A DNA stretch of 64,000 nucleotides, from the IMG/VR virus record IMGVR_UViG_3300028805_000095. One strand, written 5' to 3'. The translations under genes and the position numbers were made by a program. Below the pieces are notes generated by a model. The model had not been told where the DNA came from and ran no database searches. It saw only the letters and a program-made list of their open reading frames with translations. Below, piece by piece: positions 11,298 to 19,724 of the stretch (positions within the stretch are counted from its first letter, which is position 1; each line of letters opens with the position of its first letter). The stretch comes from an uncultured virus (IMG/VR IMGVR_UViG_3300028805_000095). Lineage: Duplodnaviria > Heunggongvirae > Uroviricota > Caudoviricetes.

Positions 11298-11334
11298 AAC
11301 CACTAGGGATTAACTCCCTAGTGGTTTATTTTTT
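11298..11334. terminator. probable bidirectional intrinsic terminator closing array 3
   Basis: AACCACTAGGGA-TTAAC-TCCCTAGTGGTT followed by a T-rich tract, between convergent units. Confidence 0.8.
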
Positions 11335-12070
11335 AAGTTCTACTAATCATATTATGTCTATTTGCCGCAGTATGAGGTGTCATGTAATTAATATCGATCA
11401 AATTGGAATATATGTTGCACCCTAATAGATACACATTCAGTGTATTCTTGGCTATACTATCTGCTTTACCTACATTATAATCATTCATGGATACACTACC
11501 CTTAGCAGAAATAATACTATTCATCTCAGCAGATGCTTTCATACTATCTGCTCTTACTCTAGATAATTCATCCATAGTAAAGTCTAATCCATATGCAGCT
11601 AATGACTCAAACTCTCTATCTGTTTCCTTAGCACCCTTATCTTCAGATGTAAGCATACCAGTCTTCATATCTCTCTTTTCTGTATTTAATGCCACATGAG
11701 ATTTCTTATAAACCATTTGCTGCATTCTCTTGATATGAAGATAAATAACCATACACTCTTGAGATTGTACAGCTTTACCATCTAGACTCTTATATACATG
11801 AGGCATATTTACTCTCTCGATTAATGGTTTATTCAATATTTTAAATGCCTCTATAATCTGTTCCATCTTAGGTTCTATTTTAAATATCTCATAATGGAAT
11901 CTTAAAGGTAATCTTCTCTCAAAGAAATGATAAAATTCATTATCATTCATCTTAGAAAAAATTCCTCTATAATAATCAGAATTAGTATGAGAGGGATCTA
12001 TAGCATCAAGTACTCTGTAAATAAGTACTTCAGCATCTTCTCTCTGCTTAGGTGTAATTAATTCAGCCAT
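11333..12070 (-). CDS. RNA polymerase beta subunit, C-terminal fragment (second enzyme, likely the virion RNAP)
   Basis: YLHIKRMQQMVYKKSH, KGAKETDREFESLAAYG, ELSRVRADS and TLNVYLLG parallel RpoB YMLKLxH, GQRFGEMEVWALEAYG and EMLTVKSDD. Confidence 0.7.
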   Translation of the reverse strand: MAELITPKQREDAEVLIYRVLDAIDPSHTNSDYYRGIFSKMNDNEFYHFFERRLPLRFHYEIFKIEPKMEQIIEAFKILNKPLIERVNMPHVYKSLDGKAVQSQECMVIYLHIKRMQQMVYKKSHVALNTEKRDMKTGMLTSEDKGAKETDREFESLAAYGLDFTMDELSRVRADSMKASAEMNSIISAKGSVSMNDYNVGKADSIAKNTLNVYLLGCNIYSNLIDINYMTPHTAANRHNMISRT

Positions 12071-14371: not shown

Positions 14372-14550
14372 TGAATGGTTTTCTTAAAGCAATAGGTGCT
14401 TTTGTATTTTCATTATTTCTAATGGGATTACCTGTTCTATTGACTCTTAGTATTGTACTACAATGGAATGCAATTGTAATGTATCTACTAATAATTGTAA
14501 ATTTAATAGAATTAGGAATGTTTACAATGGGATTAGCTTCAGGAGATTAA
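14371..14550 (+). CDS. small membrane protein
   Basis: Two hydrophobic segments; TAATG coupling. Confidence 0.55.
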   Translation: MNGFLKAIGAFVFSLFLMGLPVLLTLSIVLQWNAIVMYLLIIVNLIELGMFTMGLASGD

Positions 14551-14586
14551 TTATGGAAGAATTTAAGGAAAGGAGGTAAGTAAGTC

Positions 14587-15841
14587 ATGGTAGATAAACA
14601 ATTTATCTTAAACGATGACCAAGAAAAAATAGTAACTGCAGGTGTGAAGTTCCTTAGATCAGATGGACCACAGGAATTCCAGTTCACGGGCCCTGCAGGT
14701 ACTTAGTTGAACTGGAAAATCAGTTGTACTTCATGAGATTATAAAACGAGCTCATTTATCGCCTGATCAATATGTATGTTGCTCATTCACTGGTTCAGCT
14801 GCCGTGGTGATGAGGACAAGAGGATTTACACATGCAAGGTCTTTACATTCTCTTCTATATGAACTTGTAAAAGTTCCTGTAGTGAAGTATAATCTAGATG
14901 GTTCATTAAATCCTGCTTATGATACCTCTTTGAATAAACCTAAATATGAGTATAAATTTGTACCAAGGGAAGTAGGAACTCTAGATCCTAAAATTCAAGT
15001 TATAATAATAGATGAAGGGTATATGGTTCCTGATTGGATGAAGAAAGATATTCTTAAACATGGTAAGAAGGTTATTGTTGCTGGAGATGCAAATCAGTTA
15101 CCTCCTATTGGTGGAGAACCTGCATTCTTAACTGGTGAAGGGGTAATGAGATTGACTCAGATAATGAGACAGCAGGAAAATAATCCTATTGTATATATTG
15201 CGAATCGGATACTTAACAACGAACCTATACATTGTGGATTATATGGAAATAGAGTGCTTGTTATACCAGATACAGAACTAACTACTGATATGGTTATGGA
15301 TGTAGGAAACATTATATGCGGAACAAATAAGACTAGAGATTATTTCAATAATAAGATAAGAGATATGCTTGGATTAGATCCTCGTATTCCTACATATGGT
15401 GACAGAGTAATCTGTAGAAATAATAACTGGCAATTAGTGAAAGACAATATAGCATTGGCAAATGGCTTATCTGGAGTTATATGTTCTCCTGTAAGTATAA
15501 ACTCATATAGTGTGACATCTAACGCTGTTGCTATAGATTTTCTACCTGATTTGCTTGATACACCTTTCAATAACTTATTAATAAATTATAGTTACCTCTG
15601 CGGAGATTATGAGACTCGTAATAAGATAAAAGAGGATAAGTTTGCTACTATAGGTAATGGTGAACTATTTGAGTATGCATATGCATTGACCACTCACTTA
15701 GCGCAGGGCTCTGAATATCCTTGTGGAATATTCTATGAAGAATATCTCAGGTCAAATATTCAGAAACAACTCTGTTATACAGGTGTAACTCGATTTAAAG
15801 AGTTCATGATTTACGTAAAGAAGACTACAAAATATTATTAA
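14587..15841 (+). CDS. Dda/RecD-like SF1B helicase; Walker A interrupted by a 10-nt insert (join 14587..14703,14714..15841; 414 aa)
   Basis: AAGGAGGT RBS; MVDKQFILNDDQEK...TGPAGT then TAG; resumes in the +1 frame as GKSVVLHE...FTGSAA; later IIIDE, GDANQLPP, TQIMRQ, YAYALTTHLAQGSEY, YTGVTR. Confidence 0.85.
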
Positions 15842-15946
15842 ATTATTATAGACAGAACAGTAAGATAAAAGAATCAATAATTAGTAAGGACGATGGTTGT
15901 TCTTACTAATTATTATTCCCGTTTTCTTCAAAAAGGAGAAAAATTT

Positions 15947-18539: not shown

Positions 18540-19724
18540 ATGAACGAATCTGAAGAAAAGAAAATAATTCAACCATTTAAATTTTATCCGTCTAAAAAGA
18601 AAACAAATATAATGACTAAACATTTTCCTATAATATATAATCCGATGAATAATACATGGTTTATGGAAGGAAATAATATAAGACTTATTAATATCCCAAA
18701 CGATTTTTGGATCATTGAATATTTAGATAAATATGTATGTAGTTTTCATATGAATTGTGACTCTATCTCTGCTTCAATGTTTTTACCACAAGGTGAACGA
18801 ACCATATCAATGGCAAAAATTATGGCTATTATATATGGAAAAATAAATAATTTTGATACTAGATATAGAGTATACTTTCATAATAAACAATATATCGATA
18901 ATAATGGAATGATGATATTAGATGTTTCACCATCTAATATATGCCTTGCGTCGGATAAATATTTTATAGAAGATCAAGAATATATTTACATTCAAATTTT
19001 GCATCTAGATAATATTTTCGCTAAAATAAATAAAGAAATAAAAGATATAATTATAAATGAATATGGACAAATAAGATACAATCATAAGAAAGGTATACGG
19101 ACAAATGTAGCAGGAATACCGCGTTCAACGTGTTCTTTAAGTTTTGTTATTTATAATTTATTTAATAATAATAAAAATCCACAAGATGTTAGACAGAAAA
19201 ATAATATTATCCAATATAATTCTATTTTAAATATAAATTATTTAGATTTTACTATAGATAATATATATTGTGGCTGTGATATCAGAATAGACAATCAGTA
19301 TGCATATATTAATATACCAAAGTACAATAATATTGAGTCATTTTTTGATAAGGATATTTATTTGCTGCATAAAGAGGATTTTGATAAAATTACATGCCTT
19401 TTATCCCGAGATGGATATGTAAGGATTTCTTTTGCAAAGAGACCACAATCTGTTCCATCGGCGTTACATAGATATATATTATATTTATTAATGATAGATT
19501 ATAAAATAGATCCAAAAATACTAAAAGGAGTTGAAGTTCATCATATAAATGGAAATAAACTGGATAATAGAATAGAAAATTTATTTATATGTGGCCCTTC
19601 AATACATCAATATATTCATAGAAATATTGAGAAACTTAATAGTGATATGAAAATAAAATCAAATATTATAGAGATATTAACACTTGGATATATACCGGAA
19701 ATATATTTAAAAATATATAAATAA
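18540..19724 (+). CDS. free-standing HNH homing endonuclease
   Basis: LHRYI...EVHHINGNKLDNRIENL...HQYIH at the C-terminus; very AT-rich; upstream of gyrB. Confidence 0.75.
   Translation: MNESEEKKIIQPFKFYPSKKKTNIMTKHFPIIYNPMNNTWFMEGNNIRLINIPNDFWIIEYLDKYVCSFHMNCDSISASMFLPQGERTISMAKIMAIIYGKINNFDTRYRVYFHNKQYIDNNGMMILDVSPSNICLASDKYFIEDQEYIYIQILHLDNIFAKINKEIKDIIINEYGQIRYNHKKGIRTNVAGIPRSTCSLSFVIYNLFNNNKNPQDVRQKNNIIQYNSILNINYLDFTIDNIYCGCDIRIDNQYAYINIPKYNNIESFFDKDIYLLHKEDFDKITCLLSRDGYVRISFAKRPQSVPSALHRYILYLLMIDYKIDPKILKGVEVHHINGNKLDNRIENLFICGPSIHQYIHRNIEKLNSDMKIKSNIIEILTLGYIPEIYLKIYK

What the first reader, a model, noticed from the sequence alone, without database searches (positions are those of the whole stretch)
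14701..14713. Candidate programmed ribosomal bypass in the helicase Walker A (ACT-TAG-TTGA-ACT)
Seen: after a strong RBS the ORF from 14587 reads ...TGPAG-T(ACT) then TAG. A second ACT lies 10 nt downstream, followed by GGA AAA TCA (GKS) in frame with the rest of an otherwise intact helicase. Skipping exactly 10 nt restores GPAGTGKS. A small hairpin (AACTG-GAAAAT-CAGTT) overlaps the landing site. Established: matched take-off and landing codons with a stop after take-off define T4 gene 60 bypassing. The insert is far too short for a self-splicing intron. Inference: a translational hop, which could also protect a conserved site from homing endonucleases.
Basis: partly seen in the sequence, partly recalled or inferred. 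Interest (0 to 1): 0.8.

Follow-up and report, generated by a model that had tools for sequence, protein, structure and literature searches.

The report
Ten-base ribosome hop in phage helicase
A helicase gene of an uncultured ruminant-gut jumbo phage is cut in two by ten extra bases inside its ATP-binding motif, and comparison with relatives suggests that ribosomes skip those bases, which would be a rare natural case of translational bypassing.

Summary
A 39-codon ORF behind a strong RBS ends ...GPAGT(ACT)-TAG. Ten bases later a second ACT is followed by GGA AAA TCA, which opens a 375-codon start-less frame encoding the rest of a Dda/RecD2-like helicase. The +1 frame holds TGA inside the insert, so a simple +1 or -2 shift fails. 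Only a move from ACT to ACT restores GPAGTGKS.

It is not an assembly error. Six distinct 39-aa N-terminal ORFs (74-100% identical) stop at the same residue. Contigs from two other studies keep the 10-base length. The substitutions shown are mostly synonymous in the two joined frames. No intact allele closer than 83% was found.

Best explanation, at 0.58: a programmed short-gap bypass. It works like T4 gene 60 and most resembles the proposed 10-nt bypass in Streptomyces phage Hau3 terminase. It is not a member of the gene 60 cassette.

Sister phages break the same motif in other ways, for example with one extra base (GCS-MGG-C, +1 type). A distant homologue carries an intein in the same P-loop.

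Still open: no relative's DNA at the site could be read, one relative seems to have a 9-base gap, and no RNA structure beats shuffled controls.

The parts
14571..14577 (+). Shine-Dalgarno sequence AGGAGGT, 9 nt before the ATG of the N-terminal segment
   Evidence: sequence
14587..14703 (+). N-terminal coding segment, 39 codons, ending FTGPAGT. It holds the conserved LNxxQE helix, strand beta-1 and the first five Walker A residues.
   Evidence: It aligns to the N-termini of intact relatives (A3).
14701..14703 (+). Proposed take-off codon ACT (Thr39)
14704..14713 (+). 10-nt coding gap TAGTTGAACT. It starts with the frame-0 stop TAG and ends with the landing codon.
   Evidence: Its length is kept in contigs of runs X4 and X5.
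14708..14710 (+). TGA in the +1 (helicase) frame inside the gap. It blocks any simple +1 or -2 shift made upstream of it.
14711..14713 (+). Proposed landing codon ACT. It is the first ACN triplet in any frame after the take-off codon.
   Evidence: triplet list
14714..15841 (+). C-terminal coding segment: GKS... 375 codons plus TAA. It has no start codon for its first 30 codons. It matches a Dda/RecD2-like SF1B helicase (AAA_30, UvrD_C_2, phrog_325).
14697..14731 (+). Candidate two-part hairpin: AGGTAC/GTACTT outer stem, 7-nt bulge TTAGTTG, AACTG/CAGTT inner stem, GAAAAT loop. It places the take-off and landing codons on one strand.
   Evidence: -7.0 kcal/mol, z -0.58, so not better than shuffles. 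Conservation untested.
14662..14732 (+). Imperfect inverted repeat: 25-nt arms, 72% complementary, 21-nt loop holding the take-off codon and TAG. Its core is CAGTTCA/TGAACTG.
   Evidence: Two of the seven core pairs are broken in the X4/X5 allele (14680 C>G, 14682 G>A).

Best explanation
The gene encodes one 414-aa Dda/RecD2-like helicase that is made by programmed translational bypassing.

Proposed steps:
1. Ribosomes start at ATG 14587 and read 39 codons.
2. They stall with peptidyl-tRNA-Thr on ACU (14701-03) and the stop UAG in the A site.
3. [quoted passage not shown]
4. Decoding resumes at GGA AAA UCA, which gives an exact Walker A, GPAGTGKS.

Shown: the anatomy, its conservation, and the signs of selection on both halves.

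Inferred: the hop itself and its efficiency. Any stimulator is also inferred; candidates are the AGGU directly before the take-off codon and the local hairpins. The benefit is inferred too: low or regulated helicase dosage, and/or an altered DNA target that resists P-loop-directed homing endonucleases.
For: (a) Geometry. Frame 0 closes at 14704 and the helicase frame opens at 14711. The first codon of the open frame is identical to the last sense codon, and it is the first ACN triplet met after take-off.

(b) Fit to homologues. Skipping the 10 nt makes the protein colinear with intact homologues, with no gap in the alignment.

(c) Initiation signals. Only the N-terminal ORF has an RBS and a start. 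The next 31 codons of the helicase frame have no start, yet 33 of 39 residues match P0004.

(d) Conservation. Six distinct 39-aa N-terminal ORFs end at the same residue: GPAGT, GPAGS (three variants), GSAGT and GAAGT, at 74-100% identity. All C-parts in the 90% cluster are full length at 343 aa.

(e) Independent assemblies. Contigs of runs X4 and X5, from two other studies, carry the GSAGT allele and cross 14709 without an indel.

(f) Selection. Among the 40 of 191 differences that were displayed, changed codons were synonymous/non-synonymous 7/0 (X3), 19/5 (X5) and 19/7 (X4) in the joined frames. This includes 6/3 in the N-terminal ORF.

(g) No intact allele. None closer than 83% identity appeared among the 120 best of 917 homologues.

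(h) Genetic code. The phage uses all three stops normally: TAA 36, TAG 11 and TGA 6 in 53 ORFs. Stop reassignment therefore does not explain the break.

(i) Precedent. 10-nt and 7-nt frame-breaking inserts that start with a slow codon are proposed to be bypassed in Streptomyces phage Hau3 and prophage terminases, with a junction peptide seen by mass spectrometry in E. coli (PMC10732093, passages read).
Against: No protein, RNA or raw-read data cover the site. All four runs laid were contigs, and the RNA run X22 did not reach the site.

No relative's DNA at the gap could be read, so covariation of take-off and landing codons (Thr versus Ser alleles) is untested.

The X3 contig is one base shorter ('left out 1 at 14709', net -1 over the gene). 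That would make the gap 9 nt and put it in frame with TAG in that relative. This fits a hop but also fits stop read-through.

No predicted RNA structure beats shuffled controls (z 0.90, -0.58, -0.67, -1.66). The core of the long stem is broken in the X4/X5 allele.

There is no SD-like GAG inside the gap as there is in gene 60.

The 3-nt match could also be the microhomology of an insertion event.

The 5' part of the gene recombines freely. Some of the apparent purifying selection could therefore have been imported from intact alleles.

Only 40 of 191 differences were visible for the selection count.
Confidence: 0.58

Rival explanations
1. Null allele. The insert simply inactivates a dispensable helicase. 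Interrupted alleles are common because breaking this site is itself favoured, for example to escape a host defence that senses the helicase or a homing endonuclease. No full-length protein is made.
For: T4 Dda is non-essential (recalled). About half of the near-clade alleles are broken in or near the P-loop codons. The break type is uncoupled from the C-part phylogeny, as expected if alleles spread by gene conversion.
Against: Breaks cluster in the first ~120 nt instead of being spread along the gene. All C-parts of 343-389 aa are free of further stops or shifts, and all helicase motifs are kept. The start-less leader and the 39-aa ORF are conserved with mostly synonymous change. The matched ACT/ACT and the exact restoration of the motif would be coincidences.
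Confidence: 0.15
2. A different recoding route. One option is a +1 shift at ACT-TAG plus read-through of the +1-frame TGA, which would give GPAGT-S-x-T-GKS. Another is TAG read-through in 9-nt-gap relatives. Either yields a P-loop with three extra residues that still fits GxxxxGKS, because G38 then takes the first position.
For: The X3 contig suggests a 9-nt, in-frame gap. Any 3-residue insert after Thr39 formally regenerates GxxxxGK[ST] (from the sequence). Sister alleles use a plain +1-type site, GCS-MGG-C.
Against: In the window this needs two rare events in a row, a shift and a TGA read-through. TGA and TAG are ordinary stops in this phage. The family motif GxAG[TSVC]GKS, with A35 and G36 invariant, would be displaced and strand beta-1 would be followed by GPA.
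Confidence: 0.12
3. RNA-level removal. The 10 nt are deleted from the transcript, by polymerase realignment on the ACT repeats or by an unknown processing activity, and the mRNA is then read normally.
For: The phage is AR9/PBS1-like and encodes its own unusual multisubunit RNA polymerase (phrog_3233 hit at 11333-12070; tblastn). The gap is flanked by a 3-nt direct repeat.
Against: No such 10-nt excision is known (recalled). The gap is too short for a group I or II intron or a bulge-helix-bulge intron. Neither of the two Rfam matches at 14400-15000 (both on the - strand) reached its gathering score. There is no homopolymer for slippage.
Confidence: 0.05
4. Two separate polypeptides, a 39-aa peptide plus a C-terminal protein started internally, assemble into an active enzyme.
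For: Split phage enzymes that reassemble are known, for example T4 gp39/gp60 and split NrdA (read in bioRxiv 10.1101/2022.08.31.505936, section 12).
Against: There is no start codon or RBS for the GKS-containing frame until GTG 14804 / ATG 14810, which lies 30 codons past the P-loop lysine. The split would cut the P-loop itself.
Confidence: 0.03
5. Assembly or sequencing artefact.
For: The window comes from a single metagenomic contig.
Against: The same break is seen in 6 distinct N-terminal ORFs from JGI, ENA and Logan sources and in contigs of independent studies.
Confidence: 0.01

Closest known systems
Proposed +10 / +7 nt translational bypass in the large terminase of Streptomyces phage Hau3 and two prophages (PMC10732093; passages read)
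   Same: The inserts are short (10 nt, and 7 nt in a relative) and break the frame at a conserved junction. The flanks are adjacent in intact homologues. A slow-to-decode codon forms the first triplet of the insert. A +1 frameshift would add residues at a conserved site. An SD-like element and local pairing near the landing codon are invoked.
   Different: Here the slow codon is the stop UAG, not the rare UUA that depends on bldA tRNA. The host gene is a helicase and the site is the Walker A motif. The phages are low-GC ruminant-gut jumbo phages. The +1 frame is naturally closed by TGA. There is no sequence homology.
T4 gene 60 bypass cassette and its homologues (bioRxiv 10.1101/2022.08.31.505936, sections 3 and 12 read; PMC5462505, listing only)
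   Same: Take-off and landing codons are matched. UAG follows the take-off codon directly. Take-off is early in the ORF (codon 39 here, codon 46 in gene 60). The insert lies in a highly conserved region, where in T4 it blocks nicking by a homing endonuclease.
   Different: The gap is 10 nt against 50 nt. There is no homology. No MobA or other endonuclease gene is adjacent; the nearest HNH gene is 2.7 kb away at 18540-19724. No supported take-off stem-loop, no GAG in the gap and no known nascent-peptide signal were found. All gene 60 homologues reported in that preprint lie in topoisomerase genes.
Low-level hops over a stop or hungry codon in E. coli (Weiss et al. 1987 and later work, seen as citations in PMC10732093 and the preprint; content recalled)
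   Same: Peptidyl-tRNA re-pairs to a nearby matching codon when the A site holds a stop. No elaborate signal is needed.
   Different: Those were synthetic or accidental and of low efficiency. Here the site is fixed in a natural lineage and appears to be under selection.
byp elements of Magnusiomyces capitatus mitochondria (as described in section 3 of the preprint)
   Same: Many frame-disrupting inserts in essential genes are tolerated by bypassing, and they spread like small mobile elements.
   Different: Those inserts are 27-55 nt, GC-rich and mitochondrial. In this 64-kb window only one gene carries an insert.
+1 programmed frameshift sites: prfB CUU-UGA-C, Ty1 CUU-AGG-C, Ty3 GCG-AGU-U (recalled)
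   Same: The sister 'type B' alleles reconstruct to GCS-MGG-C followed by a frame-0 stop three codons later. That looks like a hungry-codon +1 site.
   Different: The window's own site cannot use a +1 shift because of the TGA at 14708-10.

Membership tests
Programmed translational bypassing (mechanistic class) | Matched, non-overlapping take-off and landing codons | tested here: met
   ACT 14701-03 and ACT 14711-13. It is the first ACN triplet after take-off.
Programmed translational bypassing (mechanistic class) | Stop or hungry codon in the A site at take-off | tested here: met
   TAG at 14704-06. TAG ends 11 of 53 ORFs in the window, so it is a real stop here.
Programmed translational bypassing (mechanistic class) | Skipping the gap gives a product colinear with uninterrupted homologues | tested here: met
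   GPAGT+GKS aligns without a gap to GxAG[TSVC]GKS of intact relatives. 54 of 54 IMG/VR loci have both halves in one reading frame, one of them (L016) split by an in-frame intein in the P-loop, and 28 of 28 usable metagenome loci are uninterrupted.
Programmed translational bypassing (mechanistic class) | The interruption is conserved, with purifying selection on both flanks | tested here: met
   6 distinct N-terminal ORFs stop at the same residue. Synonymous excess is seen in the displayed differences. Caveat: the difference list is partial and the gene is recombinogenic.
Programmed translational bypassing (mechanistic class) | Covariation of take-off and landing codons among relatives | not testable with these tools
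   Ser-ending alleles exist (P0123, P0128, P0129), but their DNA could not be fetched.
Programmed translational bypassing (mechanistic class) | A full-length product with the junction peptide is observed | not testable with these tools
   Needs expression and mass spectrometry.
T4 gene 60 / MobA bypass cassette (homologous family) | About 50-nt gap homologous to the gene 60 cassette, inside a topoisomerase II large-subunit gene, next to mobA or its remnant | tested here: not met
   The gap is 10 nt in a helicase gene. The neighbouring ORFs have no endonuclease hits. There is no DNA match in the phage collection.
T4 gene 60 / MobA bypass cassette (homologous family) | Take-off stem-loop with the take-off codon in its 5' strand | tested here: inconclusive
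   AGGUAC...GUACUU with an inner AACUG/CAGUU stem can be drawn (-7.0 kcal/mol), but z is -0.58 against shuffles. Conservation is unknown.
T4 gene 60 / MobA bypass cassette (homologous family) | SD-like GAG about 6 nt 5' of the landing codon | tested here: not met
   The gap TAGTTGA has no GAG or GGAG. An AGGT lies at 14697-14700, directly 5' of the take-off codon.
Hau3-type short-gap (+10/+7) bypass | A 7-10 nt frame-breaking insert that begins with a slow codon, with flanks contiguous in intact homologues | tested here: met
   A 7-nt variant is inferred for P0004 from its out-of-frame N-terminus; this is inference, not sequence.
Hau3-type short-gap (+10/+7) bypass | The trigger is the rare UUA codon, dependent on a developmentally regulated tRNA | tested here: not met
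   The trigger here is UAG.
Simple +1 (or -2) programmed frameshift | The new frame is open from the shift site onward | tested here: not met
   TGA at 14708-10 in the +1 frame.
Intron or intein | A self-splicing RNA fold, or intein blocks in frame | tested here: not met
   The insert is only 10 nt. Neither of the two Rfam matches at 14400-15000 (both on the - strand) reached its gathering score. A true intein in the same P-loop is seen only in distant locus L016.
Dda/RecD2-like SF1B helicase | AAA_30 and UvrD_C_2 domains, with Walker A, Walker B (IIDEGY) and C-terminal motifs | tested here: met
   phrog_325 at 3.4e-55, AAA_30 at 3.7e-12 and UvrD_C_2 at 2e-06. RecD2 structure 3e1s matches at 1.7e-10. 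Walker A is complete only after the skip.

The most novel reading that the evidence does not exclude
The P-loop codons of this helicase are a battleground with homing elements. Related jumbo phages carry a set of different micro-insertions in or near the same few codons: 10 nt, apparently 9 and 7 nt, and 1 nt, plus two further break types. These change the DNA target without changing the protein, because ribosomes hop or shift over them. The interrupted 5' modules then spread between phages by gene conversion. On this reading, recoding would be a general, repeatedly evolved form of immunity against inteins and homing endonucleases, and short-gap bypassing would be far commoner in phages than the few known cases suggest.
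Probability: 0.2. Interest if true: 0.88.

Novelty: new variant of a known kind. Interest (0 to 1): 0.74.

Why it matters
From the papers read here, natural programmed bypassing is known from the T4 gene 60 cassette and its homologues, yeast mitochondrial byps, and one proposed case in a Streptomyces phage.

A conserved 10-nt hop in an unrelated gene, triggered by an ordinary stop codon, would show that short hops can be fixed and maintained in nature. Natural variants (different take-off residues and gap lengths, and a sister +1 site in the same motif) give ready material for dissecting what a minimal bypass signal needs.

It also matters for annotation. Gene callers split this helicase into a 39-aa 'hypothetical protein' and a truncated helicase in every allele seen.

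If the link to homing endonucleases holds, it would extend the MobA/gene 60 logic, in which the insert protects the target site, to other conserved motifs.

Tried and rejected
DNA search of the gene against GenBank phages found no match.

IMG/VR held no close relative when searched with the single protein. With an alignment it gave 54 loci, all 56% identical or less, and none carried the insert.

The metagenome scan gave 40 loci. I dropped 12 that lack the Walker A region (L055, L061, L064, L072, L075, L077, L089-L094). The other 28 are all uninterrupted. The one 82% relative, L055, starts 15 residues past the site.

The genome-contig scan found no relative. No whole genome is held for the window.

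Earlier findings of this scan returned nothing in three look-ups.

RNA run X22 laid only on 15070-15111 and 15197-15347, not on the site. It says nothing about RNA-level removal or expression.

RNA folding of four segments around the site was no better than shuffles.

Rfam at 14400-15000 gave nothing above gathering score.

Stop-codon reassignment is rejected, because coding density is 81% and all three stops are used under table 11.

A quadruplet reading of TAGT is rejected, because TGA follows. I used that reading only to put X at the break for a Pfam search.

A search for other split genes in the window found none on the + strand comparable to the helicase.

Two literature searches for a helicase or P-loop bypass and for rumen jumbo-phage recoding returned no relevant report. 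For PMC13037316 I saw only the search listing.

Full report
**What is in the sequence**

The window's + strand carries AGGAGGT (14571-77), then ATG 14587 and 39 codons ending ACG GGC CCT GCA GGT ACT (FTGPAGT), then TAG at 14704-06. Ten bases after the first ACT lies a second ACT (14711-13). It is followed by GGA AAA TCA and an open frame to TAA 15839-41.

That frame matches a Dda-like helicase: phrog_325 at 3.4e-55, AAA_30, AAA_19 and UvrD_C_2. It also matches the RecD2 structure 3e1s at 1.7e-10.

The helicase frame has TGA at 14708-10. Frame 0 therefore closes at 14704 and the helicase frame opens only at 14711. Its first start codon is GTG 14804, 31 codons in, and no RBS precedes it.

Skipping 14704-14713 gives GPAGTGKS and a 414-aa protein.

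**Chance**

The bare pattern codon-stop-N4-same codon occurs 212 times in the window. With 35 open codons before it and 100 after it, only 14701 remains. With any gap of 4-60 nt there are 27 such places on the + strand and 1 on the - strand, so the pattern alone proves nothing. The comparative evidence decides.

**The organism**

The contig is 259,257 bp with 31.8% G+C. Coding density under table 11 is 81%, and all three stops are in use: TAA 36, TAG 11, TGA 6.

The nearest cultured phages by tblastn are the Bacillus jumbo phages AR9/PBS1 and Staphylococcus jumbo phages, at about 32% identity. A phage RNA polymerase beta-like ORF lies at 11333-12070. Sequencing runs that hold the stretch are sheep, bovine and goat gut samples.

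**Relatives with readable DNA**

- IMG/VR: 54 of 54 loci (25-56% identity) have the N-terminal part and the Walker A in one frame. One of them, L016, carries an intein inside the P-loop (GSAGTGK | intein | TTLIRYF).
- Metagenome contigs: of 40 loci, 12 lack the region. The other 28 are uninterrupted, including L056 at 73% identity.

The break is therefore confined to the close clade.

**The close clade (protein records only)**

Among the 13 closest proteins (67% identity or more), 5 are short forms.

A search with the 40-aa N-terminal stretch found three further 39-aa ORFs ending at the same residue:
- P0123 ...FTGPAGS
- P0124 ...FTGSAGT
- P0125 ...ISGAAGT (74% identical)

Cluster look-up added P0128 and P0129 (GPAGS variants). 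It also added C-parts P0126 and P0127, both 343 aa, full length, and differing from the window's by a few residues.

No intact protein closer than 83% (P0003) appeared among the 120 listed of 917 hits.

**Independent assemblies**

I laid Logan contigs of four runs on 14560-15860.

- Runs X4 and X5 come from two other studies. Their substitutions reproduce P0124 exactly (S25T, E30I, Q32E plus six synonymous codons). They have depth at 14709 without any indel, so the 10-base length is kept.
- In X5, 17 letters differ in 14568-14721 and 13 of these lie at 14649-14691. At most 4 can therefore fall elsewhere, including in the gap.
- Directly after the site, 14722-14798 is 'same length, diverged' in both runs. 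This is a mosaic segment.
- The X3 contig (11,389 nt, 62 differences) shows 'left out 1 at 14709'. Its other four gaps pair up, so the gene is one base shorter overall. That relative seems to have a 9-base gap in frame with TAG. I could not see its letters, and this remains unexplained.
- RNA run X22 did not cover the site.

**Selection**

Only 40 of 191 differences were displayed. Among these, changed codons were synonymous/non-synonymous as follows, read in frame 0 before the gap and in the helicase frame after it:

| Run | Synonymous | Non-synonymous |
|---|---|---|
| X3 | 7 | 0 |
| X5 | 19 | 5 |
| X4 | 19 | 7 |

The 31-codon start-less leader is conserved: 33 of 39 residues match P0004. 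All helicase motifs are intact in every interrupted allele. This argues that ribosomes enter the helicase frame from the upstream ORF.

**Mechanism**

A +1 or -2 shift made before 14708 runs into TGA. Frame 0 ends at TAG. Both are ordinary stops in this phage.

The only single event that yields the family motif is for the peptidyl-tRNA-Thr to leave ACU and re-pair with the next ACU. That ACU is also the first ACN triplet in any frame after take-off.

Candidate stimulators are inferred only:
- AGGU lies directly 5' of the take-off codon. At spacing 0 an SD/anti-SD duplex would be strained, and after a 10-nt slide it would be relaxed.
- A two-part hairpin spans 14697-14731.
- A 25-nt imperfect inverted repeat, 14662-86 with 14708-32, puts the take-off codon and TAG in its loop.

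None folds better than shuffled sequence (z 0.90 to -1.66). Two of seven core pairs of the long stem are broken in the X4/X5 allele.

**Other breaks in the same motif**

A profile of N-termini (A3) found 18 short proteins.

- Type B: seven proteins (P0139-P0145) are 38-44 aa and end ...G[KRSF]ARH[WR]. Reading them together with the out-of-frame N-termini of C-parts P0007, P0130, P0131, P0132 and P0011 gives a nearly unique DNA: GAC GGC MGG GCC MGG CAC NGG TAA in frame 0. In P0143/P0011 the x and Ala codons read TCA GCG instead of MGG GCC. P0012/P0144 was checked by hand. This amounts to one extra base between the Ala and Gly codons of GxAGTGKS, a +1-type site (GCS-MGG-C) with a stop three codons later.
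- Type C: P0138 ends ...AGTG.
- Type D: P0146 and P0147 end ...QVFE and ...QILE.
- P0004's N-terminus (MQALRVRSTGKS) back-translates to ...ACG TAG Y ACN GGN, a 7-nt gap. This is inference only.
- Four of the 18 (P0122-P0125) are the type A ORFs already described.
- The remaining four (P0148-P0151) run through GKS or GKT in frame.

On a tree of C-parts, type B needs at least 4 changes. P0127 (type B) is nearly identical to the window and to P0126 (both type A). P0131 (type B) is nearly identical to the intact P0136. The 5' module with its break therefore moves independently of the rest of the gene.

**Comparison with the known**

The closest case is the proposed +10/+7 bypass of UUA-headed inserts in the Hau3 and prophage terminases, with a junction peptide seen in E. 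coli (PMC10732093, passages read).

T4 gene 60 shares the matched codons, the UAG and the early take-off. Its cassette, however, is 50 nt, is homologous only within topoisomerase genes, and travels with MobA. Its insert protects the site from nicking (bioRxiv 10.1101/2022.08.31.505936, sections 3 and 12 read).

The present site works like these but is not a member of the gene 60 family. Two searches found no report of a helicase P-loop bypass.

**Verdict**

This is a real, conserved interruption of a selected gene. The best explanation is a programmed 10-nt hop (0.58). Some form of recoding that restores the helicase is about 0.75 likely. The main rival is a tolerated null allele (0.15).

Noticed in passing
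L016:2501-3577 and upstream (IMG/VR contig): A distant homologue (35% identity) has an intein of roughly 280 residues inserted inside the Walker A (GSAGTGK | AQPVDTM...VTHN | TTLIRYF). The same P-loop is therefore a homing target in this helicase family.
   Followed up: partly
Relatives only (proteins P0139-P0145 with P0007, P0011, P0012, P0127, P0130-P0132): 'Type B' alleles have one extra base between the Ala and Gly codons of GxAGTGKS. They reconstruct to GCS-MGG-CAC-NGG-TAA, a likely +1 frameshift site. There are 7 distinct N-terminal ORFs, scattered over the C-part tree.
   Followed up: partly
Relatives only (P0138; P0146, P0147; P0134; P0065, P0079): Further break types exist. N-terminal ORFs stop after ...AGTG or after ...QVFE/QILE. 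A 270-aa C-part on a 64.7-kb contig starts at the Walker B (MVPDYM). Two C-parts at 58% identity start at MPMAYTG. The DNA was not seen.
   Followed up: no
window:14722-14798: In runs X4 and X5 the 77 nt right after the P-loop are 'same length, diverged', while the flanks are 90-95% alike. This mosaic segment suggests frequent gene conversion centred on the site.
   Followed up: partly
window:61537-61621 (+): A tRNA gene (Rfam tRNA, 35.6 bits) has a long variable arm and a 6-nt anticodon loop, UGAGAA. ARAGORN could not name an anticodon. If U33 is kept, the anticodon would be GAG (Leu). A link to recoding is not shown.
   Followed up: partly
window:18540-19724 (+): A 394-aa ORF has an HNH_3 endonuclease domain (7.4e-08). 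It is the nearest homing-type endonuclease, 2.7 kb downstream of the helicase gene.
   Followed up: no
window:7890-9011 (+): A 373-aa ORF matches a PHROG annotated as transposase (phrog_4285, 2e-26).
   Followed up: no
window:9077-10363 (+): An FtsH-like protein with AAA ATPase and Peptidase_M41 domains is encoded by the phage.
   Followed up: no
window:46559-55819 (+): A single 3086-codon ORF; it was not analysed.
   Followed up: no
window:14704-14713 versus 14721-14730: By eye from the sequence, the insert TAGTTGAACT resembles the downstream coding stretch CAGTTGTACT (8 of 10). GTACTT is repeated at 14699 and 14726. This may be a clue to the insert's origin or part of the hairpin.
   Followed up: partly
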